A stretch of 64,000 nucleotides of DNA from an uncultured Bacteroidales bacterium (lineage in GTDB: Bacteria > Bacteroidota > Bacteroidia > Bacteroidales > FEN-979): NCBI GenBank assembly GCA_903925275.1, contig CAIYES010000317.1, positions 89 to 64,088 on the forward strand, read 5' to 3'. The position numbers and the translations under genes are program-made. The notes under the pieces were generated by a model. The model was not told the origin of the DNA. It saw nothing but the letters and a program-made list of their open reading frames with translations, and made no database searches. The first letter of the stretch is position 1; each line of letters opens with the position of its first letter. Below are positions 5,431-61,425 of this stretch, piece after piece.

Positions 5431-5463
5431 GACCCCGTCAGGGTCTGTCACCCTGTCAGGGTA
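5431..5463. repeat. two tandem 18-nt units, each carrying the palindrome ACCC(C/T)GTCAGGGT
   Basis: accccgtcagggt at 5432..5444 (one mismatch) and accctgtcagggt at 5450..5462 (perfect). They fill the 40-nt gap between the stop of the upstream gene (5464) and the ClC start (5423). The same palindrome with the same 18-nt period recurs at 51756..51786. Confidence 0.85.
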
Positions 5464-8361
5464 TCAATAGGAGATGGAATAAAGAAATTCAAATCCGTAG
5501 CCACCGGTTGAGGGATAGTAAATGCTCCGCACACCCATTTCGATGGGCATTACAAACCGCAGGAGATGGAAATCCATGGTGAGCTCACAGCCTGTTGACT
5601 GATATTCATTGATGTACCCCTGATTTTTGCCATTGGCCCAGTCATAGAAGAGATTCAACTTAACCCGCTTCAGGTAAATGACTGATCCAAGGCTGAGGTC
5701 AGGGTAAATAACCGGAAATTTGTAGTTGAGCTGCAGACTGAACAATTCCTGATCATCGGCACCAGTGTATCCCCGCGGATAATTGATGATACCAGCATAT
5801 GAATAAGCCGGAATGTATTTTTCCTGAGGATGCTGATATCCTGCATATAACCAGATTCCCTGATGCCGGATGATTCCGGGGAAAAAAAGGTTGGCTGAAG
5901 CACTGAAGATCGACCCCATGTCGCTGCCTCCAAAAGGAGTGTGCCGATAGGTTACATCGATGGACTGTCCCATCCGCGGATATACATCTTTTTGATTTGA
6001 ATGAAGATATTGCGAAGCGGTGATGCGGTAATCCATCGACGCGATCATTCCATTGGTAAAATTTTCAGGGGTGGATGAATTATGCTGAATGCCAATCATG
6101 GTGACACCGATTGCCGGTTGAAGGAAGCGGGAAAATCTTCCGTGGGAGAGATTAAAAGGAATGCTGATAATGGCCTTGAGATTCGTTTCCTGCCACGTAA
6201 ACCGGAATGTTTCACTGCTTCCCTGGTTTCTTGCGTAAGCAGCACGGTTTCCGATATCGAACCGGATGGTGAATTCGGGGAACAAACCCTGATAAGCAAG
6301 ACTGGTATAAAACTTCCCGGTTTGCTGATTGAGGTCGTATTCCCATCCTGCTCCGGCAAACATCGTGTTGAGGAGATTCTGGGAGAGTAGCATCACCCCT
6401 GGCATAACGGTAAGGTTGTTGATACTGAACGATGCCGGCGCCCAACTGTGTGGGTTAAACAGGTTCATGACCTTTGAATATTTCCTGGTCGGATAGATTT
6501 TTCCGTTGATTGAATCCTTGTCCATGTTGTAATTATCGGAAGAATTCATTTTAAAGATATTCCGTTGAAGCACACTGTCCTGTATGTTGGCGGTTTCCTG
6601 CAATGCCAGCGCATCAGCTAATCTGATAGATTGATCGTTAACATTGGGGAGCGGAACCCATTGTGAGGAATCAATTTTCATTTCAGCGACCATCAACCCA
6701 TCCGATGTGTAATCGGAGAAGATCATCTGTTTTTGATCCGGTGTAAAATCGGGATCATAAGCTGCAAACCGGGCGGAGGTGATTTTAAATGCCGCGTTTG
6801 TCAGGGTATCCATTGCATAAATATTTTCAACCCCCGAAACATCAACACTGTAAACGATGTAATTCCTGTAAAAAAAGGTAGTACCGCTGTATTCATTATA
6901 GGATGACGGCATAAAGTTGTGAATCCGGCTGTTTGCCAAATCAAGTGAAGCAATGGTTTCTCCTTGTTCAGTGAGCAAGGTGAAAATAATCATTTTAGCA
7001 TCCGGCGACCAGTTGGGGGTAATCGCCTGGCCATAACCGGGGATAGGATACCGTTTGATTAAGCGTCCCGACGGCACTTCGAGAATGTCGATGGAGCATT
7101 GATTTTCATAGGACATATACACGGCGGCAACCCTGGAACCATCGGGCGAAATGATGGGTGCAAAATACCGGGTTTCATCCGTCAACTCCCGGATCTTCCC
7201 TGTTTTGAAATTATACATTCTGATCTCTGCATAATCGCGGTTGCTCCATCGCAGATCCGCCTCAGATTCTGACCAAACAAGGTAATCACCGCCAATGGAG
7301 GTCGTTCCGCTGATGTGGTAACCAGGTGTTAACAACTTTCGTTCTTTGCCGGTTTTCCGATCAATCAGTACAAACCGGTCGATGTCGTCCATGCTTGATT
7401 TATCGGCGAGAATAGTGGAATCGTTCAGTATCAGCGGATGATTGTAGTTTACGAAGTTCTTCAGATTTCTTTTGGTGATGGTATGTATGAAGGTTGGAGT
7501 GGTTTCCCGGAGTTGTTTCTGCCAGGCGCTGTCGAGTCCGGTGAGTGATTGTTTGTAGAGACTGGTTTTCCACATCCCGGTTACATGGTGAATGCCGCTG
7601 TTAAACGGAACCACCAAAAATGGATATTTTGCCACCCGATCCAATGCGGTATTCCACAAATCAACGCCATGTTTTTTTCGTGCCTGCCCCACTAAATAAT
7701 AACCCAGCGAATATGCATCGGGGGTAAAGGTTTTATAAGATCCCATGGAGGCCTTGTCATACGAATAGATGCCCTTTTCGACAAGCTGGGCCCTGAGCGT
7801 GCTTTCGAACAAGGCAGATCTTCCTCGTCCTGTTTTGCTCATGGCGGTTTCTGTAACCGTTGCATCACCTTCTAAAAACCAGGATGGAACATACAATCCG
7901 AGGATTCCGCCTGTGACCTGTTCCCCGAAAATATAATACAATACTTTCGAAAAGCCCTGGTTGATTTTGCTTATCTGCACGGCATGTCTGTACTCGTGGA
8001 TGGCAAGTTGTTCGAGCCACTCCTCCGAATAGGTTTGTTGCGGTGCACAAGGGTAAAGCTCGATGCGTTTTGGCGCCCATGCTGTAAGTCCGTTTGAAAT
8101 AACTGATTGAGTATGCAGGATGACCGGGATACGGGGAACCTTCGCCGACAATGTCTTGGTCTCATTCCGGCAAATGATGTCAAGGACATTAGCAAGGTAT
8201 TGCGCTTTTTTTTCAAACGGTGCCGGGAAAACCAATTTGTAACGGTCTGTTTTGATTTGCCGCCAACTTACTGAGGAAGGATCCTGTCCTGTGCTGTAAT
8301 ATTGGGAATACCCTGGTGAAATCAGCAGGAAAACCAGGAAAAAACAACATAAAAACTTCAT
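5464..8361 (-). CDS. outer-membrane protein: HExxH (peptidase MA-like) region + PD40/TolB-type beta-propeller repeats + Omp85-like C-terminal beta-barrel
   Basis: Has a signal peptide. LAIHEYRHAVQ lies at aa 119-129 (His122 codon 7996..7998), with WFLEGDA about 40 aa downstream (gluzincin-like). PD40-type repeats are present (SPDGSRVAAVY, WSPDAKMIIF, FTPDQKQMIF). The C-terminal ~320 aa has alternating beta-strand patterning with INYPRGYTG...LNYKFPV...LNLFYDWANG and ends ...GFEFLYSISY. This resembles the EYRFPL...FFDAGN...GIGYPF tail of the BamA/TamA-family gene at 53497..55842. The start overlaps the stop of the upstream gene (ATGA at 8361..8358). Confidence 0.6.
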   Translation of the reverse strand: MKFLCCFFLVFLLISPGYSQYYSTGQDPSSVSWRQIKTDRYKLVFPAPFEKKAQYLANVLDIICRNETKTLSAKVPRIPVILHTQSVISNGLTAWAPKRIELYPCAPQQTYSEEWLEQLAIHEYRHAVQISKINQGFSKVLYYIFGEQVTGGILGLYVPSWFLEGDATVTETAMSKTGRGRSALFESTLRAQLVEKGIYSYDKASMGSYKTFTPDAYSLGYYLVGQARKKHGVDLWNTALDRVAKYPFLVVPFNSGIHHVTGMWKTSLYKQSLTGLDSAWQKQLRETTPTFIHTITKRNLKNFVNYNHPLILNDSTILADKSSMDDIDRFVLIDRKTGKERKLLTPGYHISGTTSIGGDYLVWSESEADLRWSNRDYAEIRMYNFKTGKIRELTDETRYFAPIISPDGSRVAAVYMSYENQCSIDILEVPSGRLIKRYPIPGYGQAITPNWSPDAKMIIFTLLTEQGETIASLDLANSRIHNFMPSSYNEYSGTTFFYRNYIVYSVDVSGVENIYAMDTLTNAAFKITSARFAAYDPDFTPDQKQMIFSDYTSDGLMVAEMKIDSSQWVPLPNVNDQSIRLADALALQETANIQDSVLQRNIFKMNSSDNYNMDKDSINGKIYPTRKYSKVMNLFNPHSWAPASFSINNLTVMPGVMLLSQNLLNTMFAGAGWEYDLNQQTGKFYTSLAYQGLFPEFTIRFDIGNRAAYARNQGSSETFRFTWQETNLKAIISIPFNLSHGRFSRFLQPAIGVTMIGIQHNSSTPENFTNGMIASMDYRITASQYLHSNQKDVYPRMGQSIDVTYRHTPFGGSDMGSIFSASANLFFPGIIRHQGIWLYAGYQHPQEKYIPAYSYAGIINYPRGYTGADDQELFSLQLNYKFPVIYPDLSLGSVIYLKRVKLNLFYDWANGKNQGYINEYQSTGCELTMDFHLLRFVMPIEMGVRSIYYPSTGGYGFEFLYSISY

Positions 8362-10907
8362 TTTACCAGTACTTTCCGCACTACAGTATGTTCGCTGTTG
8401 AGGAATACCACGGAATAGATGCCACTGGACACAGGACGGATGTCGATCTGCTGTTCGACGGTGCCATTTACCGGGATATCGTCACGTTCGAAAATTTTTG
8501 CCCCAAGCTGGTTGAATACCTGGATGGTGAAAGATTCCTGCGAAAAAGTGGTCATCACAATCTTGAACTTTCCGTCGTTTGGAACAGGGTACACGCTGAA
8601 ATTGTTATTTTGCAAATCATCCTGGCCTGTAAACAGAACATAAACATGGTTCGATTCGAGGGTCGGGCATCCGACACCCAAAACAACAGTCCAGTACCAT
8701 CCCGTTATCGTTGCCGTGTAAGTTTGTCCGGTTGCACCCGGGATTAAACCGGTTCCTTCATAATACCATTGATTGCCGGTTGGCGTGCTGCTTGTCAGCA
8801 ATGGCCCCACTGCAGTTACTACCGGAGCAGCCTGGGAAGCGATCATGGTTACATTGAAATCGGGCGATACAGCGCCACTTCCGCACCCGGAGATTCCTTT
8901 CACCGTTATCACGCCTGATCCCGGCGTATTGCTGAAGCTCACAACAATCTGGTTGGTCAGCGCTCCGGAGGTAATAATTGCCCCGGCAGGAACAGTCCAT
9001 TCGTAAGTGACTGCATTGGCAATCGGGGGTACACTGTAAATTACGCCATTGGTGCCTGCACAAATCGTGTCGCTTCCTGATATAACGCCGGCTGGTCCGG
9101 GGAACAGGTCTACCGATACATTTTTCGAACCAGGTGTGCTGGCCGTACACCCATTTCCATCGGTATAGGTAACACTCAACCATTGTGCACCAGCCGTATT
9201 CCAGGTAACTAAAATATTGTCGGTCCCCGATCCTGAAGTAATCGAGCCACCCGGCGAAATTGTCCAAAGATAATTTGTCATGCCTGGTTCCGTCGAATAT
9301 GACACCCCGGTTGTACCTTGACAAACTACGGCAAGTCCGGTGATTGTCGGCACCGGCAATGCATGAACTGTGACGCTCGTCGATGTTGGGTTCTGAGCGG
9401 TGCAACCGGCCTGATTCATATAATTAATGCTGACGCCCTGGGGGCCTGCAGTATTCCAGGTTACGGTAATGCTGTTATTCGATGATCCGCCACCGCCTGT
9501 AACGGTTCCACCAAATGATAGAGCCCATAAATACCCGGTCATCCCTGCTTCGGTAACATAAACATTTCCCGATGAACCAATGCAGGCAGATAGCGGACCT
9601 GTAAGGGTCGGAACGGGTAGTTCATTTACGGTAACAGCTTTGGATGTGGGTGTTGCAGCGGAACATCCTGTGGAAGGTATGGAATAGTTAACTGTCACCG
9701 ATTTTGATCCGGAAGTACTCCAGTTAACCTGGATTGCGTTCGATCCGGCCCCCGAAATGATTGATCCACCGGCCGAAACGGTCCATGAATAAGATGACAT
9801 TGCAGGTTCGGTAGTGTAGGGGTAATTGGCTGGGCCTAAACAGATGCTGGTATTCCCTGTAATGGTAGGGACCGGAAGCGGATTTACAATAACAGTTTTA
9901 ACCGTTGGAGTTGCAGCCAGGCATCCGAATGAATTTGCATAATTCAGGGTGACGCTCTGCGTGCCGGCCGTATTCCAGTTAACGGTAATGGTTGCTGTTC
10001 CTGTACCTCCTGTGATATTGCCGCCTGACGAAACGACCCATGCATAATTTGTCATTCCTGTAGCAGTGGTGTATGTAATTCCCGTTGATCCGGCGCAAAC
10101 GGTCCCCAATCCGGTTATTACAGGCACTGGCAAAGGGTTGATCGTAACCTCAAGACTGGAGGGAGTTCCCGTACCGCAACCATTAGATCCGGCAACTGTA
10201 ACATTTCCGGAAATGGCCGAATTAGAATAATTCACAACAATTGAACTGGTATTGCTGCCCGAAATGATCGAACCGCCTGATGGTAAGTTCCAGATATAGT
10301 CCGTGGCATTTGCAATGGCCGGAACACTATAAGCAACATTGCTGGTTCCTGCACAAAGCAGGGTTGATCCTGTTATTGTTCCTGCAGGGGCAGCGTTACT
10401 GTTCGTAACCGTCGCACTGAAATAAAAAGTAGCTGTCGGGATGTCGTTCATAGCCGCACCATTCTCATCGGCATATTCACACTCGCCACCACTATTTGCA
10501 GTGTTGTTGAAGCTTACAGCAGGTGATCCGGTTGTTAGGGTGAAATTTAAATCCAACAATTTTGCTGCATCAGGCAAAGTCCGTGAATTAACATCCGACC
10601 ACACAATCAGAATTTTGGAAAGATTAGAGCTGATGTTAACAGAGTTGACCGAAGCGCCTGAAAGTGACGAATTTAACCCGGAATAGCTGACATATACCAA
10701 CTGGGTCGGATCATAGTCAAGCCGAAGCGTGATAGCCTTTATGGTGATAAAACCTGTAACAGTAATCGGAACAACAACTGCCGCACCTTCGCAAACTGTT
10801 GAAGAACCGGCAGTTGTGATCGGCGCATCGCGGGCAGTCAGAAATTCCGGGTGCAGAAAGTTCAAAAAACCGACAATCACAAATAGTATCAATACCTTTT
10901 GTCTCAT
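8358..10907 (-). CDS. T9SS-secreted surface protein: cohesin-like N-domain, six or seven PKD/Ig-like ~80-aa modules, type A T9SS C-terminal sorting domain
   Basis: Has a signal peptide. The N-domain reads AAVVVPITVTGFITIKAITLRLDYDPTQLVYVS (cohesin-like). Repeated modules follow the pattern LPVP.ITG...C.G....Y.T..GMT.Y.W.....G.I..G.G...I.V.W...G...V.V.Y....GC. The tail FSVYPVPNDGKF...VFNQLGAKIF...SGIYSVVFLNSEHTVVRKVLVK matches the Por secretion tail pattern. Confidence 0.85.
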   Translation of the reverse strand: MRQKVLILFVIVGFLNFLHPEFLTARDAPITTAGSSTVCEGAAVVVPITVTGFITIKAITLRLDYDPTQLVYVSYSGLNSSLSGASVNSVNISSNLSKILIVWSDVNSRTLPDAAKLLDLNFTLTTGSPAVSFNNTANSGGECEYADENGAAMNDIPTATFYFSATVTNSNAAPAGTITGSTLLCAGTSNVAYSVPAIANATDYIWNLPSGGSIISGSNTSSIVVNYSNSAISGNVTVAGSNGCGTGTPSSLEVTINPLPVPVITGLGTVCAGSTGITYTTATGMTNYAWVVSSGGNITGGTGTATITVNWNTAGTQSVTLNYANSFGCLAATPTVKTVIVNPLPVPTITGNTSICLGPANYPYTTEPAMSSYSWTVSAGGSIISGAGSNAIQVNWSTSGSKSVTVNYSIPSTGCSAATPTSKAVTVNELPVPTLTGPLSACIGSSGNVYVTEAGMTGYLWALSFGGTVTGGGGSSNNSITVTWNTAGPQGVSINYMNQAGCTAQNPTSTSVTVHALPVPTITGLAVVCQGTTGVSYSTEPGMTNYLWTISPGGSITSGSGTDNILVTWNTAGAQWLSVTYTDGNGCTASTPGSKNVSVDLFPGPAGVISGSDTICAGTNGVIYSVPPIANAVTYEWTVPAGAIITSGALTNQIVVSFSNTPGSGVITVKGISGCGSGAVSPDFNVTMIASQAAPVVTAVGPLLTSSTPTGNQWYYEGTGLIPGATGQTYTATITGWYWTVVLGVGCPTLESNHVYVLFTGQDDLQNNNFSVYPVPNDGKFKIVMTTFSQESFTIQVFNQLGAKIFERDDIPVNGTVEQQIDIRPVSSGIYSVVFLNSEHTVVRKVLVK

Positions 10908-11005
10908 TATTCGTTGAATTATTTAAACAGTCAATACATTCAAATTTAATCCGGCAAAGGTATTGTAAAGGTACAAAAAAATCGTATTTATTCAAAAGTG
11001 AAGTG

Positions 11006-11038
11006 AAAAAAAAGCCCCGCCGTTTCGGGCAGGGCTTT
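11006..11038 (-). terminator. intrinsic terminator downstream of the 1251-aa cargo gene
   Basis: The minus strand reads AGCCCUGCC-cgaaac-GGCGGGGCU (one G.U pair) followed by a U8 run. It lies 21 nt after the stop at 11059. Confidence 0.8.
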
Positions 11039-22548: not shown

Positions 22549-22640
22549 GTGACAAATGAAATGACAAATGACAAATGACGAATGACAAGTAAAGAAACTT
22601 GAGTGACGTCACTTGTCACTTGTCATTTGTCATTTGTCAT
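22549..22640. repeat. inverted repeat built from tandem heptamers: (ATGACAA)n ... AGTGACGTCACT ... (TTGTCAT)n
   Basis: The left arm has units at 22549..22588 (GTGACAA, ATGACAA x3, ATGACGA). A central perfect 12-nt palindrome lies at 22602..22613. The right arm is TTGTCAC plus TTGTCAT x3 at 22613..22640. The structure occupies the whole convergent intergenic gap and contains the stop (22637..22639) of the minus-strand gene. Confidence 0.9.
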
Positions 22641-23941
22641 TCCCAAAACCCAAGCAGTTCCTCCAGGGTTTCCCGCTCTTTCAAAATTTCAAAACGATCT
22701 TCACGGTATCCGATAATTCTGGGGGTTTGGCGGCTGTTGTAACGCGACCACATGCTGAAGGTATATCCGCCGCTGTCGTGGATTACCAGATAGTCACCCT
22801 CTTCAACGGGTGGAAGGCAGACTTCTTTTGCTAACATATCGCCGGAAAAACAAAGAGGGCCGGCCAGGTTCCATAGGTTTACATCCTTTCCCTCTTTAAT
22901 CCTGCCTTCCCGGTCGAAAAGTGTGTATTGATGATGCCAATCCTTTGGGTTCAGACATTCACGCAGAAACAGATCGGCACCCACATGCAGCATGGCGGTG
23001 TTGATCGATTGATCGTGTTTTACATATTCCACACGGCTTACGGTCCAACCGGCGTTGGTACAGGTCCATCGGCCGAATTCGGTTATCAGTTTAAACACTG
23101 TAGTATTAAAGAGTTGAGGAGCACGTCGTCTGATTTTTCCGACATATTCTTCCATGGAAGGGATGGCTGAGATAGTGTTGTAGGCAACAGGGAGTCCTCC
23201 GCCAATGTCGAACACATCGATGGCATGGAGGTTGGCATTCCGGCGCTTTGCATTTACCACCATGGTGAAGTCGTATAACGCGCCGATCCCGTCGACCAGC
23301 ATTTCCATGGGGCAACCCTGTGAACCTACGTGAAGGTGCACACCTGTGAGCCAGGCATGTGTGAGGAAAGCCTGCTCAAGTTGCGCACGCTGGTGCCTGA
23401 GCGGCACGCCGAATTTTGAATATTCTCCTGCCACACTCGATTCCAGGATTGTTCCTAACCCGATCTGCGGATTGATCCTCAACCCTACTGATCCGGTAGA
23501 TGTCACATTCGCTGACCGGCTTTGATAAATCATAGCCACCCGGTTCAGTTCCGAAAGGTTATCGACATTGATGTGTAACCCGGTTTTAAGCGCAAATTCA
23601 AGTTCCTGCATCGTTTTAACCGGCGAATCATAAACAATCTGATCAGGCCGGTAACCGGTTTTCAATGCCATGGTCACTTCGCCGATGGATGCAGCTTCGG
23701 CTCCGATATTTGGAGCAATTCCTTTCATGAACTCCAAAATCCGCACCAATGGATTGGCTTTAATGGCAATTCCGTGAAGTGTGTTTTCAGGGAAACAGGA
23801 TGTGAGGTGTTTGATGCGTGATTCAAGGTACGAGAGATCGTATAAGATCGCAGATGTATCCTCTTCACGGATCATTCCACTTAAAAGTGCCGAACGTAGG
23901 GTATTTCCAATGGATGCAGCACTCAAATTATTTTCAACCAT
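22637..23941 (-). CDS. type III PLP-dependent decarboxylase (Orn/DAP/Arg decarboxylase family)
   Basis: HGIAIKANP (PLP-Lys region), VHLHVGSQ, FDIGGGLPVAY, LAGPLCFSGDMLA and HDSGGYTFSM are present. The substrate cannot be assigned by eye. Confidence 0.7.
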   Translation of the reverse strand: MVENNLSAASIGNTLRSALLSGMIREEDTSAILYDLSYLESRIKHLTSCFPENTLHGIAIKANPLVRILEFMKGIAPNIGAEAASIGEVTMALKTGYRPDQIVYDSPVKTMQELEFALKTGLHINVDNLSELNRVAMIYQSRSANVTSTGSVGLRINPQIGLGTILESSVAGEYSKFGVPLRHQRAQLEQAFLTHAWLTGVHLHVGSQGCPMEMLVDGIGALYDFTMVVNAKRRNANLHAIDVFDIGGGLPVAYNTISAIPSMEEYVGKIRRRAPQLFNTTVFKLITEFGRWTCTNAGWTVSRVEYVKHDQSINTAMLHVGADLFLRECLNPKDWHHQYTLFDREGRIKEGKDVNLWNLAGPLCFSGDMLAKEVCLPPVEEGDYLVIHDSGGYTFSMWSRYNSRQTPRIIGYREDRFEILKERETLEELLGFWE

Positions 23942-23949
23942 TTCTATCT

Positions 23950-24025
23950 GCTATTTCGCTACCTCGCTATTTCGCTACCTCGCTACCTCGCTATTTCGCT
24001 ACCTTGCTACCTCGCTATTTCGCTG
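23950..24025. repeat. octamer tandem array, 9.5 units of GCTATTTC / GCTACCTC
   Basis: Units are contiguous from 23950. The array spans the junction between the mqnD stop (24007..24009, inside unit 8) and the decarboxylase start (23941). Confidence 0.9.
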
Positions 24026-31691: not shown

Positions 31692-31735
31692 AGCATTGCA
31701 TTAATGCAGGGAAGTGGGATAAATTGCGACGACTG

Positions 31736-32857
31736 ATGCAGGAAGATCAATTGCTGACGATTTGCGGCTATGCAAAAACTCCGGAAGTATTAATGGGCAT
31801 CGCCCGGAAAATTGCAGAAGGACAACGGATTTCAGGGGAGGATGGCCTTGCACTTTTCAAGCAGGCCGATCTGGGTTTTCTCGGGATGCTGGCAGACCAT
31901 GTGCGTCGGAAAAAAAACGGGAATGACGCATATTTCATTCGGAATTTTCATATAGAACCAACAAACATCTGTATCAATAAGTGCAGATTTTGTTCTTATT
32001 CCCATCATTTCAGTTCAACCAGATGGGAACTGACGGTTGACGAAATACTTGAAAAGGTAAGGATACAGGATCAGCGTGTAACTGAACTGCATATTACCGG
32101 GGCGGTTCATCCCGACCGGGATATTTATTATTATGGAGATTTGCTGACAAGGATCAAAAGTGTGCGGCCCGCATTGCACCTGAAGGCCTATTCGGCGGTT
32201 GAACTTGATTATATGATCCAAAAATCCGGAATGAGCATCCGGGAGGGCTTGATCTACCTGAAATCCTGCGGTCTCGACTCTATCCCGGGAGGTGGGGCAG
32301 AAATTTTTGATGAGGCCATCCGGACGGAGATTTGTGGCATGAAATCAACATCCGGTACCTGGCTTGAAATTCATGAAACAGCGCATCAGCTCGGGATACC
32401 ATCCAATGCAACCATGCTTTACGGGCACCTGGAAAACTACGCTCAGCGCATCGACCATCTCGAACGGTTGCGGCAACTTCAGGATCGGACTGCAGGCTTC
32501 AATGCTTTTATTCCTTTGAAATTCCACAACAGCAACAATGCCATGTCAAGGATTGCTGAGGTTTCGGTGGTGGAAGATATGAAAATGTACGCTGTGGCAC
32601 GGCTATACCTCGATAATTTCCCACACATGAAAGCCTATTGGCCGGCTGTTGGACGGAAATTGGCACAAATATCCCTGTCGTTTGGCGTAGACGATCTCGA
32701 TGGTACCATAAACGATTCTACCAGGATATATTCACTGGCAGGCGCCGAAGATCAAAACCCTGTGATGACTGTTTCACAGATGGTTGCCATGATCACCGAA
32801 GCCGGCCGCACACCGGTTGAGCGGAACTCTCTTTACCAAATGCAGGGAATGCAGTGA
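31736..32857 (+). CDS. radical SAM menaquinone (futalosine-pathway) enzyme, MqnC/MqnE (CofH-like) family
   Basis: CINKCRFCSY is the CxxxCxxC cluster motif. The N-terminal ...LGMLADHVRRKKNG..AYF and the ~375-aa length are typical of MqnC/MqnE. I cannot tell C from E by eye. I prefer the ATG at 31736 to the TTG at 31724. The last 7 codons and the stop lie inside the 9-mer array. Confidence 0.7.
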   Translation: MQEDQLLTICGYAKTPEVLMGIARKIAEGQRISGEDGLALFKQADLGFLGMLADHVRRKKNGNDAYFIRNFHIEPTNICINKCRFCSYSHHFSSTRWELTVDEILEKVRIQDQRVTELHITGAVHPDRDIYYYGDLLTRIKSVRPALHLKAYSAVELDYMIQKSGMSIREGLIYLKSCGLDSIPGGGAEIFDEAIRTEICGMKSTSGTWLEIHETAHQLGIPSNATMLYGHLENYAQRIDHLERLRQLQDRTAGFNAFIPLKFHNSNNAMSRIAEVSVVEDMKMYAVARLYLDNFPHMKAYWPAVGRKLAQISLSFGVDDLDGTINDSTRIYSLAGAEDQNPVMTVSQMVAMITEAGRTPVERNSLYQMQGMQ

Positions 32858-33043
32858 ATGCAAGCAATGCAAGCAATGCAAGCAATGCAGGCAATGCAGG
32901 CAATGCAGGCAATGCAGGCAATGCAGACAATGCAGGCAATGCAGGCAATGCAGACAATGCAGACAATGCAGACAATGCAGACAATGCAGGCAATGCAGAC
33001 AATGCAGGCAATGCAGACAATGCAGACAATGCAGACAATGGGA
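32837..33043. repeat. nonamer tandem array, 22 units of (G/A)CAATGCA(G/A) plus degenerate end units
   Basis: Units counted base by base from 32837. Unit 3 (TGAATGCAA, 32855..32863) supplies the TGA stop of the radical SAM gene. The array contains no stop triplet on either strand, which explains the (CRQ)n, (NAG)n, (MQA)n, (HCL)n and (ALS)n phantom ORFs in the track. Confidence 0.95.
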
Positions 33044-33865: not shown

Positions 33866-33883
33866 AAAAGAAAATGGGGAGAT

Positions 33884-33925
33884 AGTGAAATGGTGAAATG
33901 GTGAAATGATAGCTAGTTATTTCAC
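33884..33925. repeat. octamer array (A/G)GTGAAAT x3 plus an inverted copy ATTTCAC that overlaps the folC stop
   Basis: agtgaaat is at 33884..33891, ggtgaaat at 33892..33899 and ggtgaaat at 33900..33907. An 11-nt spacer follows, then atttcac at 33919..33925. On the minus strand the folC 3' end reads GTT GTG AAA TAA. Confidence 0.85.
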
Positions 33926-35215
33926 AACTTCAGCTACTACAAAGGTACTTCCACCTACAAAAACAAGATCGGTTTCAGCAGCATTTTCCCGGGCAGCTTT
34001 GAGTGCAGCGTTTACCGACGGATAGCATTCTCCTTTCATTCCGGCATCGTGTGCATGTTTCTGCAGATCCACGGCATCAAGTCCCCTTGGTATATCGGGT
34101 TTGCAGAAATAGTATGTTGCGTTTTTCGGCAGCAGTTGAAGAATGGGTGGCAGAAACTTGTCATTTACTACACCGAAAACAAAATGCAGGTGTTGGTGCG
34201 GCGTGGCGGCAATCTGTGCAATGACCTCCTTCAATCCGCTCTCGTTATGACCTGTGTCGCAAATGGTTAGCGGGTTTAAGCTCAGTACTTGCCACCGGCC
34301 TGCCAGACCGGTGTTTTTGATGACTTCTTTTATTCCTGCCCGGATGTTCGACAGAGTTATTTCAAACCCCTGATTATTTAATCGTTCGCAGGCCGCCAGA
34401 ACGGTCAGAATGTTTTTTCGTTGGTATATCCCTGCCAGGGGCGATATGAGTTGAGCCATATAGGGTGCTCCTTCACGGAAAATGTCCATTGATCGATTGG
34501 CAGCGTGTTTCCCTGCAGACTTAAAATTTTCGACCCGGAAATGTTGATCGGCAAACAGGATTTCAGACCTGCTCTCATCTGCCTTGCGTTGAAAAACGTG
34601 CCTGACCTCTTGTTGTGTTTCCCCGATAACAACCGGAATACCTTGTTTAATAATGCCCGCTTTTTCTGAGGCGATTTTTTCAAGGGTGTCTCCCAGGAAT
34701 TGCACATGATCAAAACTTACATTGGTGATAACCGATAATACCGGGTTGATGATATTGGTCGAATCAAGCCTGCCGCCTAAACCAACCTCCACAACAGCCA
34801 CATCGGCTTGTTGATCCCTGAAGTAAGCAAAGGCCATTCCTACGGTAAGTTCGAAAAATGATGGGTTGATTTTCTCAAATTCAGCACGGTGGTTTTCAAT
34901 AAAGGCTGTTACATATTTTTTTCCGATCATTTTTCCGTTAACCCTGATACGCTCACGAAAGTCCTTTAAATGGGGCGAAGTGTATAACCCTGTGCGGTAT
35001 CCGGCAGTTTGCAGGATGGAGGCAAGCATGTGTGAAACGGAACCTTTTCCATTGGTTCCGGTTATATGAATTGAACGGAAGGAATCATGCGGGTTTCCGA
35101 GTAAACCACAAAGAGCGATGGTGTTGTCGAGGTTGGCTTTGTAAGCCTGTGCGCCAATCCGGTGGAACATCGGCAGTTGGGCATATAAATATTCCAGCGT
35201 TTGGGGATAGGTCAT
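33917..35215 (-). CDS. folC: bifunctional folylpolyglutamate synthase / dihydrofolate synthase
   Basis: HITGTNGKGSVSHMLASIL is the Mur-ligase P-loop. EVGLGGRLDSTN and the ~430-aa length are typical of FolC. Confidence 0.85.
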   Translation of the reverse strand: MTYPQTLEYLYAQLPMFHRIGAQAYKANLDNTIALCGLLGNPHDSFRSIHITGTNGKGSVSHMLASILQTAGYRTGLYTSPHLKDFRERIRVNGKMIGKKYVTAFIENHRAEFEKINPSFFELTVGMAFAYFRDQQADVAVVEVGLGGRLDSTNIINPVLSVITNVSFDHVQFLGDTLEKIASEKAGIIKQGIPVVIGETQQEVRHVFQRKADESRSEILFADQHFRVENFKSAGKHAANRSMDIFREGAPYMAQLISPLAGIYQRKNILTVLAACERLNNQGFEITLSNIRAGIKEVIKNTGLAGRWQVLSLNPLTICDTGHNESGLKEVIAQIAATPHQHLHFVFGVVNDKFLPPILQLLPKNATYYFCKPDIPRGLDAVDLQKHAHDAGMKGECYPSVNAALKAARENAAETDLVFVGGSTFVVAEVVK

Positions 35216-49842: not shown

Positions 49843-49941
49843 TTCATTGTATGCATTGTATGCATTTCCTGCATTGTTTGCATTGTTTGCATTGTTTGCA
49901 TTGTTTGCATTGTTTGCATTGTTTGCATTGTTTGCATTTGG
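49843..49941. repeat. nonamer tandem array, 7 perfect TGCATTGTT units plus 4 variant units
   Basis: Counted from 49843. The reverse complement AACAATGCA belongs to the same family as the (G/A)(G/A)CAATGCA unit at 32837..33043, in the opposite orientation. It lies between ispF and rpsF. Confidence 0.9.
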
Positions 49942-51182: not shown

Positions 51183-52046
51183 ATGCTCTCACAAAACCAG
51201 ATCAAACAGATTACCGCGCTCAAGGTAAAAAAATACCGGGAGGAGTTCAGTCAATTTATTGCCGAAGGTCATAAATTGGTCATGGATATGATTGGCAGCA
51301 GTTATAAGATTGCCGGAATCTATGCATCTGCCGACTGGATTGTTGCAAATATTATCCTGATCCGGGAGAAAAATATACCTGTTTTTGAAACATTGCCCCG
51401 GGAGATGGAAAGACTCACTGCACTTTCTACACCCAGTCCGGTTCTCGCCGTAGTAAACATCCCTAAAAAAAAATTAACAGTATCAACCTTGTTTGATCAC
51501 ATCAGCACATTATCACATCAGCACACCAGCACATTATCACATCAGCACACCAGCACATTAGTTCTAGCCCTCGACGACATACGCGACCCTGGTAATTTCG
51601 GGACGATCATCCGTATTGCCGATTGGTTTGGGATCAACATGGTGCTTTGTTCAGAAAGCTGTGTGGATATATATAATCCAAAGGTTGTGCAGGCCACCAT
51701 GGGTTCGATTGCGAGGGTGAACGTAATTACCGGCGACCTGGCTCAGACACTCACCACCCTGTCAGGGTCAACCACCCTGTCAGGGTCCTCCGGGCGGTTT
51801 CCGGTATATGGCGCCTGTCTTGATGGCGATTCGATATTCTCACAAACCCTCACCGGTCATGGTATCATCCTGATCGGCAATGAATCCCGCGGAATTTCAG
51901 CCGATCTTGCACCCCTTATAACAAAAAAAATCTCGATCCCTTCTTATGGAAATTCATTCTCCGGGAAGGCCGAATCACTCAACGCATCCATCGCCACGGC
52001 CATCATCTGCGCCGAATTCAGGAGAAAACAAATAATTACTAATTAA
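51183..52046 (+). CDS. TrmH/SpoU-family RNA 2'-O-methyltransferase carrying two in-frame tandem-repeat insertions
   Basis: SpoU motifs are LALDDIRDPGNFGTIIRIADWFG, LIGNESRGIS and IPSYG...ESLNASIATAII. The N-terminal substrate-binding-type domain resembles group 3 TrmH proteins. Confidence 0.85.
   Translation: MLSQNQIKQITALKVKKYREEFSQFIAEGHKLVMDMIGSSYKIAGIYASADWIVANIILIREKNIPVFETLPREMERLTALSTPSPVLAVVNIPKKKLTVSTLFDHISTLSHQHTSTLSHQHTSTLVLALDDIRDPGNFGTIIRIADWFGINMVLCSESCVDIYNPKVVQATMGSIARVNVITGDLAQTLTTLSGSTTLSGSSGRFPVYGACLDGDSIFSQTLTGHGIILIGNESRGISADLAPLITKKISIPSYGNSFSGKAESLNASIATAIICAEFRRKQIITN
51498..51560 (+). repeat. in-frame tandem repeat inside the methyltransferase: 24-nt unit cacatcagcacaccagcacattat x2 plus a 16-nt partial copy
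   Basis: It encodes HISTLSHQHTSTLSHQHTSTL and is built from CAGCACA(C/T) sub-units. It sits between the N-terminal domain and SpoU motif 1. Confidence 0.9.
51751..51786 (+). repeat. in-frame 18-nt x2 repeat carrying the palindrome ACCCTGTCAGGGT
   Basis: accctgtcagggt occurs at 51756..51768 and 51774..51786. The repeat encodes TLSGSTTLSGS. The palindrome and period are the same as at 5431..5463. Confidence 0.9.
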
Positions 52047-52072
52047 TAATTACTAATTAATAATTGATAATG
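52031..52072. repeat. 14-nt tandem repeat x3 (AATAATTACTAATT x2, AATAATTGATAATG) overlapping the methyltransferase stop
   Basis: Units are at 52031..52044, 52045..52058 and 52059..52072. The TAA stop at 52044..52046 spans the boundary between units 1 and 2. Confidence 0.85.
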
Positions 52073-52099
52073 GTAAATTATTCATAATTCGCTGATTAT

Positions 52100-52148
52100 T
52101 TGTCATTTGTCATTTGTCATTTGTCATTTGTAATTTGTAATTTGTCAC
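52100..52148. repeat. heptamer array TTGTCAT x4, TTGTAAT x2, TTGTCAC x1
   Basis: Contiguous units from 52100. The unit is the same as the right arm of the 22.6-kb inverted repeat. It lies 32 nt upstream of the next gene. Confidence 0.9.
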
Positions 52149-52179
52149 TATTTTAATTCATCCCTTAACCCTGGCCATC

Positions 52180-53475
52180 TTGAAAACACAACATATTCAC
52201 AGTCTGTTCGCTCCAATATCGTTAACATTTTTTATAGTTTTTATCTGGCTTAATGGTTTCCCTTCCACACTCCGCAATGAAAACATCTGTTATTATCCCT
52301 CTGTTCAAACCATTCAGGTTTTCAAAGAGGGTTTTGAACTGTCGCCCCCTATTATTCAGCTTAACGGTACAGACCGGCTGCAAGTCTCTTTCGACGATCT
52401 TGATCCGGATTTAAAACGTTATAAATACACCATTGTTCATTGTGAATCCGATTGGAAAACCTCCACGGATCTTTCGGTTTCCGATTATATCGCCGGTTAC
52501 CGTGAAGAGAACATTGATCAGTATGCCTATTCCTACAATACCACAATTAAATATATTCATTACAACCTTACCTTTCCTACCGGCAATATGCAGCCGAAAC
52601 TGTCAGGCAATTATATTTTTCTGGTCTATGAAGAGGACACCTCCAATATCGCTTTTACTGCAAGGTTCATGGTGGTTGAGCCTTCGCCGGTGGTTGCCAG
52701 CGGGAGAATCGTCCAAAGTTCACGTATTGTCGACCGCAATGCACGCCAGCAGATCGACTTTGTGGTAAAACTGAATGGCTTTCAGGTTTTTGATGTTGGA
52801 CGTGAAATCAGGATCGTCGTGCAGCAGAATGGAAGGTGGGATAATGCAATCAGGTTGTCAAAACCCCGGTTTGCCCATACCGATGAACTTGATTATCGAT
52901 ACGACGAAGCGATCTCCTTTAACGGAGGCAATCAATTTCGCAACTTTGACATAAAAAGCCTGCTTTACCAGTCAGAAAGAATAGCACGGATTACCTATGA
53001 TACCGCAAGTCAGGTGTATCTGCTTGCCGATCAGCCCCGTACATTCAAGCAATACGCTTTTGAAAAAGATATAAATGGGAGATTTTATATTAAAAACGAT
53101 GAACATGCCGAGAATAGCAGTACCGAAGCGGACTATGCATGGGTTCATTTTTTTTTACCTTATCCTGCGCTTATTACAACCGGTGAGTTCCATCTTCTTG
53201 GCGAACTAACTGCCTGGCAACTGAGTAACAAAAGCCGGTTAAAATTTAACTTCGATCGTAAGGGATATGAACTTGACCTTTTCCTGAAGCAGGGATATTA
53301 CAATTATCTCTATGTAATAAAAGAAAAAGACAAGTCAATTGGTGACGAATCGCTCATTGAAGGAAATCATTGGGAAACTGAAAACGATTACACGATTTAC
53401 GTCTATTTTCATGAAACCGGTTCACAGTACGACCGGCTGATTGCTGTGAACTTTCTCAATACCATCCAACCCTGA
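52180..53475 (+). CDS. DUF5103 / T9SS plug-like protein
   Basis: IQVFKEGFELSPPIIQLNGTDRLQVSFDDLDPDLKRYKYTIVHCESDWKTS... matches my memory of the N-terminal signature of the DUF5103 (T9SS_plug) family, and the ~430-aa length fits. It has a TTG start with no in-frame ATG near the 5' end. Confidence 0.5.
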   Translation: MKTQHIHSLFAPISLTFFIVFIWLNGFPSTLRNENICYYPSVQTIQVFKEGFELSPPIIQLNGTDRLQVSFDDLDPDLKRYKYTIVHCESDWKTSTDLSVSDYIAGYREENIDQYAYSYNTTIKYIHYNLTFPTGNMQPKLSGNYIFLVYEEDTSNIAFTARFMVVEPSPVVASGRIVQSSRIVDRNARQQIDFVVKLNGFQVFDVGREIRIVVQQNGRWDNAIRLSKPRFAHTDELDYRYDEAISFNGGNQFRNFDIKSLLYQSERIARITYDTASQVYLLADQPRTFKQYAFEKDINGRFYIKNDEHAENSSTEADYAWVHFFLPYPALITTGEFHLLGELTAWQLSNKSRLKFNFDRKGYELDLFLKQGYYNYLYVIKEKDKSIGDESLIEGNHWETENDYTIYVYFHETGSQYDRLIAVNFLNTIQP

Positions 53476-61331: not shown

Positions 61332-61354
61332 CCCCTCCCCGAAACAGGGAGGGG
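61332..61354 (+). other. GC-rich hairpin CCCCTCCC-cgaaaca-GGGAGGGG
   Basis: A perfect 8-bp stem read directly from the sequence. It lies in the spacer upstream of tRNA-Gln. Function unknown. Confidence 0.5.
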
Positions 61355-61382
61355 AGTACCTTCACCAAGCTTTCAAAGAATG

Positions 61383-61425
61383 CACTTAACAATTAGTTAC
61401 TTAACACTTAACACTTAACACTTAA
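61383..61425. repeat. heptamer array CACTTAA (3 perfect contiguous units plus 3 degenerate units)
   Basis: cacttaa-caattag-ttacttaa-cacttaa-cacttaa-cacttaa. It ends 6 nt before the tRNA 5' end. Confidence 0.8.

What the first reader, a model, noticed from the sequence alone, without database searches (positions are those of the whole stretch)
5431..61425. Short tandem-repeat arrays sit on gene ends throughout the window, and three unit families recur at distant loci
Seen directly: I found 12 separate arrays.
- 18-mer x2 at 5431.
- Heptamer inverted array at 22549.
- Octamer x9.5 at 23950.
- Nonamer x22 at 32837.
- Octamer x3 plus an inverted copy at 33884.
- Nonamer x11 at 49843.
- 24-mer x2.6 at 51498.
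- 18-mer x2 at 51751.
- 14-mer x3 at 52031.
- Heptamer x7 at 52100.
- Heptamer x6 at 61383.
- A related AATGCA inverted pair at 31692.

Placement is not random. Six arrays touch or contain a stop codon (5464, 22546/22637, 24007, 32855, 33917, 52044). Two are in frame inside a CDS. The others sit just upstream of rpsF, the plug-like gene and tRNA-Gln.

Three unit families recur kilobases apart:
- TTGTCAT at 22.6 kb and 52.1 kb.
- NNCAATGCA at 31.7 kb, 32.9 kb and, inverted, 49.9 kb.
- The palindrome ACCCTGTCAGGGT with an 18-nt period at 5.45 kb and 51.77 kb.

Established knowledge: heptameric STRR repeats are known in heterocystous cyanobacteria and REP/BIME elements in enterobacteria. I am not aware of an equivalent described family in Bacteroidota.

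Inference: this is a genome-wide, actively spreading class of micro-repeats that targets or arises at transcript 3' ends. They could act as terminator or RNA-stability hairpins with multiple pairing registers, or as slippage-prone contingency loci.
Basis: partly seen in the sequence, partly recalled or inferred. Interest (0 to 1): 0.78.

Follow-up and report, generated by a model that had tools for sequence, protein, structure and literature searches.

The report
REP hairpins and STRR-like tandem repeats
The short repeat arrays are real and vary between strains, but they are two already known kinds of bacterial micro-repeat: palindromic REP elements tied to a RAYT transposase, and slippage-prone 7-9-base tandem repeats like those of cyanobacteria, here in an uncultured Bacteroidota lineage.

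Summary
All 12 arrays exist at the stated coordinates. The window has 12 tandem arrays (TRF score >=50) against about 0.3 in shuffles and 1 in a 50-kb E. coli control. Intergenic DNA is 5.9% of the window but holds 73% of array bases.

The arrays fall into two classes.

1. The 18-nt-period palindrome ACCCYGTCAGGGT (5432-5462; 51756-51786, in frame in a TrmH-like gene) is a REP element. It is dispersed in relatives: at least 132 arrays in 803 kb. It is read in three or more frames inside genes. It flanks RAYT (REP-associated tyrosine transposase) genes on both sides in every RAYT locus whose flanks were held. These span RAYTs only 49-53% identical and include Sunxiuqinia and Flavobacterium.

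2. The 7-, 8- and 9-nt direct arrays are STRR/LSSR-type repeats. Their unit families recur in relatives. (TTTGTCA)n is abundant in Nostocales. Copy number differs by whole units between about 95%-identical strains, and one 85-nt inverted heptamer hairpin is absent from a sister strain.

Arrays do sit next to stop codons, as is already published for heptamer repeats and REPs. Most do not fold, none is a canonical terminator, and the in-gene arrays keep the reading frame.

The parts
5432..5462 (.). REP doublet ACCCCGTCAGGGT-CTGTC-ACCCTGTCAGGGT. It fills the 40-nt spacer between the stop of the 965-aa gene (5464) and the start of the CLC channel gene (5423), both on the minus strand.
   Evidence: Exact 13-mer positions. 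Hairpin -21 kcal/mol, z -3.6. Same core and 18-nt period as arrays that flank RAYT genes in relatives.
51756..51786 (+). REP doublet ACCCTGTCAGGGT-CAACC-ACCCTGTCAGGGT, in frame (TLSGST TLSGS) inside the TrmH/SpoU-family methyltransferase gene 51183-52046.
   Evidence: The orthologues of relatives carry 1-4 copies at the same site (A1; L007 has 3 copies). Fold -22.2 kcal/mol, z -2.3.
22550..22641 (.). Inverted heptamer arrays, (TGACAAA)~6 and (TTTGTCA)~5, around a 20-nt spacer between two convergent genes. The last unit supplies the TGA stop of the Orn/DAP decarboxylase gene (22637-22639, minus strand).
   Evidence: TRF, sequence. Hairpin -45 to -56 kcal/mol, z -7.4 and -10.6. Bases 22550-22634 are absent from sister strain L260, which is 95.5% identical.
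23950..24024 (.). Octamer array TCGCTACC/TCGCTATT with a 24-nt super-period. It fills the spacer between the MqnD-like gene and the decarboxylase gene, and encodes the last 6 codons and the stop of the MqnD-like gene.
   Evidence: No structure (z -0.2). The same unit family occurs at other loci in relatives (L189, L204, L205, L230, L239, L257).
31692..31712 (.). TGCATTAATGCA palindrome followed by a solo AATGCAGGG unit, between the trypsin-like gene and the radical-SAM gene. Membership is weak.
   Evidence: Sequence. Fold not significant (z -0.75). Shares the 11-mer AATGCAGGGAA with 32839-32849.
32839..33040 (+). Nonamer array (AATGCAGGC/AATGCAGAC) x22.4. It starts inside the last 6 codons of the radical-SAM Mqn gene, contains that gene's stop (32855-32857), and ends 28 nt before the ThiF start.
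   Evidence: No structure beyond shuffles (z -1.6). The same unit occurs at x13 in L221. Other assemblies break inside it (L250, L251).
33872..33926 (.). Octamer array (GTGAAATG) x3-4.6 plus one inverted copy (TTATTTCAC), between convergent ThiS and Mur-ligase genes. The array duplicates the 5' arm of a small hairpin.
   Evidence: Hairpin z -2.5 and -3.3. Strains with an identical ThiS protein carry 2, 3 or 6 octamers.
49845..49938 (+). Nonamer array (CATTGTTTG) x10.4, lying 115 nt after ispF and 74 nt before rpsF. It shares the CAATGCA core, inverted, with the array at 32839.
   Evidence: The window has 11 units, L174 has 10 and L002 has 7. The same unit occurs in L221 and L247.
51498..51560 (+). 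24-mer x2.6, built of three octamers (CACATCAG type), in frame in the TrmH-like gene (HISTLSHQ repeats).
   Evidence: L174 lacks exactly one 24-nt unit. Orthologues carry 0-6 eight-residue repeats at this site.
52031..52071 (+). 14-mer (AATAATTACTAATT) x2.5 spanning the TrmH-like stop codon. It is a local tandem duplication of the gene's own 3' end.
   Evidence: The close relative L174 has a single copy.
52098..52147 (+). Heptamer array (ATTTGTC, i.e. TTTGTCA) x7.1, upstream of the T9SS plug gene.
   Evidence: L174 has 4 units, three of them CTTGTCA. L004 has (TTGGTCA)x7 at the same junction and L007 has none.
61383..61425 (+). Heptamer array (CACTTAA) x6, ending 6 nt before tRNA-Gln (61432-61503).
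   Evidence: No structure (z +0.8).

Best explanation
The window comes from an uncultured Bacteroidota lineage, probably near Bacteroidales. Its genomes carry two separate populations of micro-repeats.

(A) REP elements. The 13-nt palindrome ACCCYGTCAGGGT with a 5-nt spacer is a REP element. Two adjacent copies form a 31-nt hairpin. This hairpin is the cognate structure of a RAYT (REP-associated HUH/Y1 tyrosine transposase). By analogy with other REP/RAYT systems, the RAYT is inferred to cut and rejoin such hairpins in single-stranded DNA and so seed new copies. Once a copy is in place, the 18-nt unit is amplified locally head to tail. Because 18 is a multiple of three, copies survive in frame in tolerant loops of proteins.

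(B) Direct tandem arrays. The arrays of 7-, 8- and 9-nt units are STRR/LSSR-type simple-sequence repeats. They grow, shrink, homogenise and disappear by replication slippage. Some start as duplications of local sequence, such as a hairpin arm or a gene's 3' end. Others belong to unit families that recur across the clade.

Selection then filters where either kind can persist. They persist mostly in spacer DNA directly after stop codons, where no promoter or leader is disturbed. Inside genes they persist only as in-frame multiples (3 x 8 = 24 nt, or 18 nt). Most arrays are therefore tolerated selfish or neutral DNA rather than dedicated terminators or switches. The few that form hairpins may incidentally affect mRNA 3' ends.
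For: REP identity (shown):
- Those loci hold 132 arrays. All but one of the 126 measured gaps between copies are 18 nt. Two copies is the commonest size and 16 the largest. The flanks are not conserved. Spacers differ between loci and are usually the same or similar within an array.
- About a quarter to two fifths of the arrays lie in long ORFs. They are read in several frames and on both strands, as TLSGS/TPSGS, DPVRV or HPDGV.
- In L152, L157 and L210 a 195-206-aa ORF has a doublet ~100 nt upstream of its start and another 0-10 nt after its stop. In L196 only the upstream doublet is held, because the contig ends inside the gene.
- That ORF matches NCBIfam REP_Tyr_transpos at E 3e-19 and 8e-18.
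- It also matches PDB 4ER8 TnpArep at E 5e-5, with the HUH motif (NHFHF) and the YIHNNPVKHG motif aligned.
- JGI names its homologues 'REP element-mobilizing transposase RayT'.
- Loci retrieved through the protein alone carry the same core next to the RAYT gene. L256/L257 have 11 and 5 copies. L258 is held only downstream. L259 (RAYT 49% identical) has 8 and 9 copies. Sunxiuqinia rutila (L262) and Flavobacterium sp. (L263) have single hairpins.
- One RAYT gene carries a REP core between its own HUH and Y motifs, a trait reported for TnpA_REP subclass 2.4 (PMC6006769).

STR dynamics (shown):
- Between ~95%-identical strains, whole-unit differences occur at the nonamer (11, 10 and 7 units) and the 24-mer (one unit more or less).
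- They also occur at the 14-mer (2.5 against 1), the heptamer (7 against 4, with a homogenised C/T difference) and the octamer (2, 3 or 6).
- The 85-nt inverted heptamer element is absent from L260.
- More distant relatives have different units, or no array, at the same junctions.
- Unit families recur at many non-orthologous loci.
- (TTTGTCA)3 occurs in at least 120 GTDB loci, about 96 of them cyanobacterial and 6 from Bacteroidota.

Placement (shown). The same placement is published for heptamer repeats of Xanthomonas and Nostoc (PMC4692102).

Inferred rather than shown: that the RAYT mobilises these REPs, that slippage is the mechanism of length change, and that most arrays are neutral.
Against: - No RAYT gene lies in the 64-kb window (tblastn). 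The link to this organism's own genome rests on relatives and on a RAYT contig (L196) from the same metagenome project as the 95%-identical relative L174.
- The REP lacks the GT[AG]G foot of canonical REPs.
- Slippage alone does not explain why a limited set of unit families recurs at many loci, or why TTTGTCA is shared with distant phyla.
- The strong bias towards stop codons, and the hairpins at both convergent gene pairs (22549, 33884), are also what a 3'-end function would predict.
- Array lengths come from short-read assemblies and may be inexact.
Confidence: 0.72

Rival explanations
1. The arrays are functional RNA 3'-end elements: terminators or mRNA-stabilising hairpins with several pairing registers, selected at gene ends.
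For: - Arrays abut or contain stop codons far more often than start codons.
- Both convergent gene pairs that carry arrays have significant hairpins: 22540-22650 with z -7.4 and -10.6, and 33880-33932 with z -2.5 and -3.3.
- The REP doublets also fold, with z -3.6 and -2.3.
- REPs in enterobacteria are known to stabilise upstream mRNA (established knowledge).
Against: - Seven direct arrays fold no better than shuffles, with z from -1.6 to +0.8.
- None has the T-run of the canonical terminators that this genome does use, at 51151-51177 and 61511-61555.
- The largest hairpin is wholly absent from a 95.5%-identical strain, where the two stops lie 3 nt apart.
- Arrays are as frequent per region in divergent spacers as elsewhere, and about a quarter to a third lie inside genes.
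- Relatives have different units or no array at the same junctions.
Confidence: 0.15
2. The arrays are contingency loci. Changes in unit number switch or tune expression of neighbouring genes such as the T9SS plug, rpsF and tRNA-Gln.
For: Unit number is polymorphic between co-occurring strains. Several arrays lie between a gene and the next start codon (49845, 52098, 61383).
Against: - The in-gene arrays have 18- and 24-nt periods and vary by whole in-frame units, so no frameshift switching occurs.
- The neighbouring genes are mostly housekeeping.
- Most arrays sit beside the upstream stop rather than the downstream promoter or start: median 3 nt against 49 nt.
Confidence: 0.07
3. Each unit family is a binding-site array for a sequence-specific protein, such as an S1/Csp-type RNA binder or a nucleoid protein. 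This was proposed for the TAACTGA repeats of Beggiatoaceae.
For: - A limited set of unit families recurs at many loci and across relatives.
- The same heptamer is shared with distant phyla.
- The proposal itself is in PMC4679880.
Against: - There are dozens of different units with no common motif beyond 3-4-fold enrichment of a few 4-mers.
- Orientation relative to the flanking genes is not consistent; for example 32839 and 49845 are inverted relative to each other.
- Arrays come and go between close strains.
- No candidate binder was identified.
Confidence: 0.05
4. The arrays are assembly artefacts of short-read metagenomics.
For: Contigs from several assemblies end inside arrays, so repeats do disturb assembly and exact lengths are uncertain.
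Against: The same arrays, with ordered whole-unit differences and intact flanks, occur in independent samples and with different assemblers (L001, L174, L002, L250-L254, L260, L261). They also occur in isolate genomes of other taxa.
Confidence: 0.01

Closest known systems
REP/BIME elements and REPINs with their RAYT (TnpA_REP) transposases. These include the Bacteroidetes-rich TnpA_REP subclasses 2.4 and 2.6 of Quentin et al. 2018 (PMC6006769).
   Same: - A short palindromic hairpin in many dispersed copies, mostly extragenic and close to gene 3' ends.
- Copies are often clustered.
- Copies flank a single RAYT gene on both sides (a REPtron).
- The RAYT has HUH and YIxNNP motifs.
- A REP copy lies inside the RAYT gene itself.
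- The system persists vertically: the same insertion is found in TrmH orthologues of species only 65-75% identical.
   Different: - There is no GT[AG]G foot.
- Each 13-nt arm is itself a palindrome, so head-to-tail copies also act as inverted copies.
- Regular 18-nt arrays reach 16 copies.
- An unusually large share of copies lies in frame inside genes.
- The subclass could not be assigned. NHFH and a length near 200 aa fit 2.4, while the Bacteroidetes host and the atypical structure fit 2.6.
CGTC/TGTC-tagged REPs and Rickettsia palindromic elements (Di Nocera et al. 2013, PMC3733652)
   Same: - A C/TGTC tetranucleotide next to a short stem with a 5-nt loop.
- Reported in Bacteroidetes.
- Units occur inside coding regions without breaking the frame.
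   Different: - Published CGTC REPs have 8-9-bp stems and a CCA tail, and were reported to have no associated transposase.
- Here the stem next to YGTC is 5-6 bp and the elements flank a RAYT.
- Membership was not established because the consensus figures were not available.
Cyanobacterial STRR heptamers and long simple-sequence repeats of 5-11 nt. Sources: Mrazek 2007 as summarised in PMC4679880; the TAACTGA repeats of Beggiatoaceae, Cyanobacteria and five Bacteroidetes (PMC4679880); the GGGNATC repeats of Xanthomonas and Nostoc (PMC4692102).
   Same: - Tandem heptamers dominate.
- About 90% are intergenic.
- They lie much closer to the upstream ORF's end than to the next start.
- Inverted array pairs occur.
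- Length and sequence vary between close relatives.
- Unit families are dispersed.
- The TTTGTCA unit itself is common in Nostocales.
   Different: - Here 7-, 8- and 9-nt families coexist.
- Octamers enter genes as 24-nt triplets.
- The host is an uncultured Bacteroidota clade.
- My recollection that STRR2 is TT(G/T)GTCA could not be verified in the library.
Phase-variable contingency SSRs of host-adapted pathogens such as Haemophilus, Neisseria and Moraxella
   Same: Changes in unit number driven by slippage, some of them upstream of genes.
   Different: Contingency SSRs have 1-5-nt units that shift the frame or the promoter spacing of surface-antigen genes. Here the units are 7-24 nt, frame-neutral or extragenic, and lie next to housekeeping genes.

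Membership tests
REP / REPtron (RAYT-associated repetitive extragenic palindromes) | A short imperfect palindrome able to form a stem-loop | tested here: met
   5424-5466 folds at -21 kcal/mol (z -3.6) and 51745-51795 at -22.2 kcal/mol (z -2.3). Perfect 13-bp versions (T in one arm, A in the other) flank RAYT genes.
REP / REPtron (RAYT-associated repetitive extragenic palindromes) | High copy number, dispersed over the genome, with unrelated flanks | tested here: met
The window holds 2 loci in 64 kb. The window organism's whole genome was not available.
REP / REPtron (RAYT-associated repetitive extragenic palindromes) | Copies flank a RAYT gene (HUH plus catalytic Tyr) | tested here: met
   Copies lie on both sides in L152, L157, L210, L256/L257, L259, L262 and L263. 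Only one side is held for L196 and L258. Not met in the window itself, which has no RAYT.
REP / REPtron (RAYT-associated repetitive extragenic palindromes) | A conserved 5' GT[AG]G tetranucleotide at the foot of the hairpin | tested here: not met
   No GT[AG]G lies next to the stem in any copy read. A C/TGTC lies at the centre of each 13-mer instead. Bacteroidetes subclass 2.6 is described as having 'atypical' structures (PMC6006769).
REP / REPtron (RAYT-associated repetitive extragenic palindromes) | The RAYT binds and cleaves its cognate REP | not testable with these tools
   This needs biochemistry.
STRR / long simple-sequence repeats (5-11-nt units) | Head-to-tail arrays of 5-11-nt units, longer than composition predicts | tested here: met
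   12 arrays against 0.3 in shuffles and 1 in the E. coli control.
STRR / long simple-sequence repeats (5-11-nt units) | Unit families dispersed at many loci, mostly intergenic | tested here: met
   Searches show each window unit family at other loci in relatives. 73% of array bases lie in 5.9% of the DNA.
STRR / long simple-sequence repeats (5-11-nt units) | For STRR in the strict sense: host is a heterocystous cyanobacterium and units are STRR1-3 | tested here: not met
   The host is Bacteroidota, shown by T9SS genes. The TTTGTCA unit is shared with Nostocales. Its identity with the published STRR2 rests on memory only.
Intrinsic (Rho-independent) terminators | A G+C-rich hairpin followed by a T/U run at a gene's 3' end | tested here: not met
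   No array is called as a whole. The only hits at an array are two partial inner-palindrome matches at 22600-22622. True examples lie at 51151-51177 and 61511-61555.
Contingency (phase-variation) SSR loci | Changes in unit number shift a reading frame or a promoter spacing | tested here: not met
   In-gene arrays have 18- and 24-nt periods and strain differences are in frame. Promoter effects were not testable.
CRISPR arrays | Repeats of 24-50 nt separated by unique spacers of similar length, usually near cas genes | tested here: not met
   The repeat is 13 nt and the spacer 5 nt, usually the same or similar along an array. There are no cas genes in the window.

The most novel reading that the evidence does not exclude
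The 7-9-nt unit families may not be independent slippage products. Like the REP, they might be seeded or dispersed by an HUH/Y1-type single-strand DNA enzyme.

Leads in favour:
- The REP centre, the TTTGTCA/CTTGTCA heptamers and the ACC[CT]TGT[CT] octamers all share a TGTCA or YGTC core.
- Both the repeats and the RAYT subclasses are concentrated in Cyanobacteria and Bacteroidota.

If true, this would give the 35-year-old STRR problem a mechanism.

A smaller novel reading is that these are the first C/TGTC-type REPs with a cognate RAYT.
Probability: 0.07. Interest if true: 0.75.

Novelty: new member of a known kind. Interest (0 to 1): 0.4.

Why it matters
- It shows that a striking pattern has an ordinary explanation. 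About 15% of this window's intergenic DNA is micro-repeat arrays, and they resolve into two known repeat classes.
- It documents a REP/RAYT system in Bacteroidota with an easily recognised core (CCTGTCAGG). The core is conserved from Flavobacterium to Bacteroidales. In one clade it has expanded into 18-nt arrays, and it is often read in frame inside housekeeping genes (TrmH here; MetRS and a probable RsmA in relatives).
- The strain-level polymorphisms found in public metagenomes make this lineage a usable natural system for measuring turnover of REPs and STRR-type repeats.
- A practical point: these arrays break short-read assemblies and generate spurious ORF calls.

Tried and rejected
- **Rfam:** the gathering-threshold scan of the window found only tRNA-Gln.
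- **Literature:** a full-text search for the palindrome returned only chance matches in unrelated papers.
- **CRISPR-like reading of the 18-nt arrays:** rejected, because the spacers are 5 nt and usually the same or similar along an array.
- **A 'tron' for heptamers:** I looked for genes flanked on both sides by arrays of the same unit. Only housekeeping genes lie between such pairs: MetRS, a TPR protein and a butyrate-kinase-like gene.
- **Physical link between STR and REP arrays:** only 1 of 112 STR arrays lies within 150 nt of a REP array. This argues against STRs being by-products of REP activity at the same site.
- **4-mer enrichment in units:** GTAA, ACGA, GTCA and GACA are 3-4-fold enriched. 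This is suggestive only, because the families are not independent.
- **Organism identity:** none of the GTDB loci carrying TTTGTCA arrays is a relative of the window, so the species could not be named.
- **CGTC-REP family assignment:** could not be completed, because the consensus figures are not held.
- **STRR unit sequences:** two literature searches for the original units found no open text giving them.

Full report
**1. Observation**

- The 18-mer pair at 5432-5462 falls below the TRF threshold. It is still real: the 13-mer ACCCTGTCAGGGT occurs only at 5450, 51756 and 51774, and the variant ACCCCGTCAGGGT lies at 5432.
- The window has 12 arrays with TRF score >=50. Thirty dinucleotide-preserving shuffles give a mean of 0.3, and 50 kb of E. 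coli K-12 gives 1.
- With a gene map built from ORFs and Pfam hits, intergenic DNA is 5.9% of the sequence. It carries 545 of the 745 array bases, so about 15% of all spacer DNA is array.

**2. Context**

The genes are ordinary chromosomal genes of a Bacteroidota organism.
- There is a type IX secretion cluster (PorP, a PorK-like gene, two C25 PorU-like genes, PorV and a plug) with many Por_Secre_tail cargo proteins.
- There are futalosine-pathway genes, the rpsF-rpsR-rplI operon, Mur ligases and a tRNA-Gln.
- No mobile-element gene lies in the window.
- The source contig is a 66-kb ENA metagenome contig.
- Syntenic relatives were recovered from other metagenomes: L174 and L002 (about 95% nucleotide identity), L004-L006 and L007-L009 (TrmH 67-74% identical in the A1 alignment).

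**3. Class A: the 18-nt-period palindrome is a REP element**

*Dispersal.* A metagenome scan for ACCCYGTCAGGGT-N5-ACCCYGTCAGGGT stopped at its 120-locus limit.
- Those 803 kb hold 132 arrays.
- All but one of the 126 measured gaps between copies are 18 nt.
- Two copies, which form a 31-nt hairpin, is the commonest size. The largest array has 16 copies.
- The flanks share nothing. The 5-nt spacer differs between loci and is usually the same or similar within an array.

*A DNA-level element.* About a quarter to two fifths of the arrays lie inside long ORFs. There they are read in different frames and on both strands, as TLSGS/TPSGS, DPVRV or HPDGV. This marks a DNA-level element rather than a protein motif.

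*Link to a RAYT gene.*
- In L152, L157 and L210 a 195-206-aa ORF has a doublet about 100 nt before its start and another 0-10 nt after its stop. In L196 only the upstream doublet is held, because the contig ends inside the gene.
- The ORF matches NCBIfam 'REP-associated tyrosine transposase' at E 3e-19 and 8e-18. The scores of 65-70 bits are below the 80-bit equivalog cut-off.
- It matches Pfam Y1_Tnp weakly.
- It matches the E. coli TnpArep structure 4ER8 at E 5e-5, with the HUH and Tyr motifs aligned.
- JGI names its homologues RayT.

*Reverse test.* Starting from the protein alone, RAYT homologues 72%, 49%, 51% and 52% identical were fetched.
- L256/L257 have 11 and 5 copies of the same core on the two sides.
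- The Bacteroidales MAG L259 has 8 and 9 copies.
- Sunxiuqinia rutila and Flavobacterium sp. ZT3R18 have single hairpins on each side.
- L258 is held only on the downstream side, where it has 5 copies.

*A further trait.* One RAYT gene has a REP core between its own HUH and Tyr motifs. This trait is described for TnpA_REP subclass 2.4, which is common in Cyanobacteria and Bacteroidetes. Subclass 2.6 is the Bacteroidetes group with 'atypical' flanking structures (PMC6006769). I could not decide between the two subclasses.

*The two window copies.* They are therefore REP doublets. One fills a 40-nt spacer. The other sits in frame in a TrmH-like methyltransferase gene, where orthologues of related species carry 1-4 copies at the same site.

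**4. Class B: the 7-, 8- and 9-nt direct arrays are STRR/LSSR-type repeats**

- In the relatives' 803 kb there are, besides the REPs, about 117 arrays. Periods of 7 (44 arrays) and 8 (21 arrays) dominate.
- Each window unit family, or for GTGAAATG a one-base variant, recurs there at other loci: TTTGTCA/CTTGTCA, both CAATGCA-core nonamers, TCGCTACC/TCGCTATT and CACATCAG.
About 96 of the 120 loci are cyanobacterial, mostly Nostocales. Six are Bacteroidota. The rest are Planctomycetota, Acidobacteriota and others.
- An acidobacterial locus has the same inverted-pair layout as 22550/22608. Inverted pairs with spacers of about 12-20 nt recur in relatives with other units.

**5. Dynamics**

Between strains about 95% identical the arrays differ by whole units.
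- The nonamer before rpsF has 11, 10 or 7 units.
- The in-gene 24-mer differs by exactly one unit.
- The 14-mer at the TrmH stop has 2.5 copies in the window and 1 in L174. The window copy is therefore a duplication of the gene's own end.
- The heptamer before the plug gene has 7 units in the window and 4 in L174, with a C/T difference homogenised along the array.
- The octamer after ThiS has 2, 3 or 6 copies, while the small hairpin it duplicates is kept.
- The whole 85-nt inverted heptamer element is missing from strain L260, where the two convergent stop codons lie 3 nt apart.
- At greater distance the same junctions carry other units or none. The TrmH/plug junction has (TTGGTCA)7 in L004 and nothing in L007.
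- This rules out both ancient fixed sequence and assembly artefact. Contigs do often end inside arrays, so exact lengths are uncertain.

**6. Placement**

- In tandem spacers of the clade sample, STR arrays lie a median of 3 nt from the upstream stop and 49 nt from the next start. Of 49 arrays, 35 are nearer the stop (p = 0.004). For REP arrays the medians are 6.5 and 60.5 nt.
- Of arrays that are not internal to a gene, 38 of 93 STR arrays and 29 of 100 REP arrays overlap or lie within 5 nt of a stop. Only 10 of 93 and 4 of 100 do so for a start.
- The ORF starts were taken at the most upstream start codon, so the start distances are underestimates and the bias is conservative.
- Per region, however, arrays are about as frequent in divergent spacers (9-12%) as in convergent (12-14%) or tandem ones (8-13%). 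Many also lie inside genes.
- The same closeness to the upstream ORF is published for heptamer repeats of Xanthomonas and Nostoc: 28 nt against 160 nt, 89-93% intergenic, with inverted pairs (PMC4692102).

**7. Structure and function tests**

- Only four loci fold better than shuffles: the inverted heptamer pair, the octamer plus its inverted copy, and the two REP doublets.
- The nonamers, the octamer at 23950, the 24-mer, and the heptamers at 52098 and 61383 do not.
- No array is called as a canonical terminator. Clear examples exist after rplI and after tRNA-Gln.
- Rfam finds nothing but the tRNA.

**8. Mechanism**

*Shown:*
- the REP-RAYT association;
- the dispersal of both repeat classes;
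- the frame-neutral survival of copies inside genes;
- whole-unit polymorphism between strains;
- the local origin of two arrays;
- the bias towards stop codons.

*Inferred:*
- RAYT-mediated seeding of the hairpin;
- slippage as the cause of array growth and loss;
- purifying selection as the reason arrays accumulate just after stops and as 18- or 24-nt multiples in genes.

*Unexplained:* why a limited set of 7-9-nt units recurs at many loci and across phyla. A link to the RAYT is suggested by the shared TGTCA core and by octamers that look like REP half-sites. It is weakened because only 1 of 112 STR arrays lies within 150 nt of a REP array, and no gene is bracketed by heptamer arrays the way the RAYT is bracketed by REPs.

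**9. Comparison and verdict**

- The closest known systems are REP/BIME/REPIN elements with RAYTs, CGTC-tagged REPs and in-frame Rickettsia palindromic elements (PMC3733652), and cyanobacterial STRR and other long simple-sequence repeats (PMC4679880, PMC4692102).
- The defining REP features are met except the GT[AG]G foot.
- The LSSR features are met.
- The terminator, contingency-locus and CRISPR features are not met.
- Heptamer repeats in Bacteroidetes, and Bacteroidetes RAYTs with flanking structures, are both already published.
- This is therefore a new member of known kinds, with some unusual traits: 18-nt REP arrays, many in-frame copies, and coexisting 7-, 8- and 9-nt families.
- Interest is moderate (0.4).

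Noticed in passing
window 37783-53475: A large type IX secretion gene neighbourhood: a PorK-like FGE-sulfatase-family gene, PorP/SprF, two C25 PorU-like peptidases, PorV and a T9SS plug. The rpsF-rpsR-rplI operon and a TrmH-like gene are embedded in it. Many Por_Secre_tail cargo genes lie at 8358-20003 and 27191-31691.
   Followed up: partly
window 24007-25652 and 31724-32857: Futalosine-route menaquinone genes (MqnD-like, a PNP_UDP_1 hydrolase, and a radical-SAM CofH/MqnC-like gene). They lie next to ThiF- and ThiS-like genes.
   Followed up: no
window 61511-61555 and 51151-51177: Textbook hairpin plus T-run terminators. One is a perfect 20-bp bidirectional terminator after tRNA-Gln, the other an 11-bp terminator after rplI. 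The genome therefore uses canonical terminators, and they are not at the arrays.
   Followed up: yes
window 61332-61354: A G/C-rich hairpin, CCCCTCCC-CGAAACA-GGGAGGGG (-17.1 kcal/mol, z -2.6), upstream of the heptamer array and of tRNA-Gln. Its role is unknown.
   Followed up: partly
window ~32854-33054: The source assembly's gene calls include a 66-aa ORF that lies entirely inside the nonamer array. It is almost certainly spurious. ORF 32817-33665 likewise over-extends ThiF through the array.
   Followed up: partly
window 19244-19287: A 21-mer x2.1 (79% matches) inside the 1622-aa PKD-domain cargo gene. It looks like a protein-domain repeat and is not part of the micro-repeat families.
   Followed up: no
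L216 8226-10439; L180 and L193: In relatives, REP arrays sit in frame in housekeeping genes. One is a methionyl-tRNA synthetase with TLTG.. and DPVRV inserts. Another is probably RsmA/KsgA, identified only by reading the flanks.
   Followed up: partly
L262 6001-12630 (Sunxiuqinia rutila): The RAYT homologue with its flanking REP hairpins lies directly upstream of Cas6- and Cas3-like genes.
   Followed up: no
L004 8654-8695; L188 3330-3419 and 6483-6596; L223 6077-6234: Octamer arrays ACC[CT]TGT[CT] resemble the left half of the REP core (ACCCTGTC). In L223 they form an inverted array pair. They may be a bridge between the REP and STR families.
   Followed up: partly
L189 (11.4 kb): This locus has eight separate 7- or 8-nt arrays, of six unit families, within 11 kb. 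It is the densest example seen.
   Followed up: no
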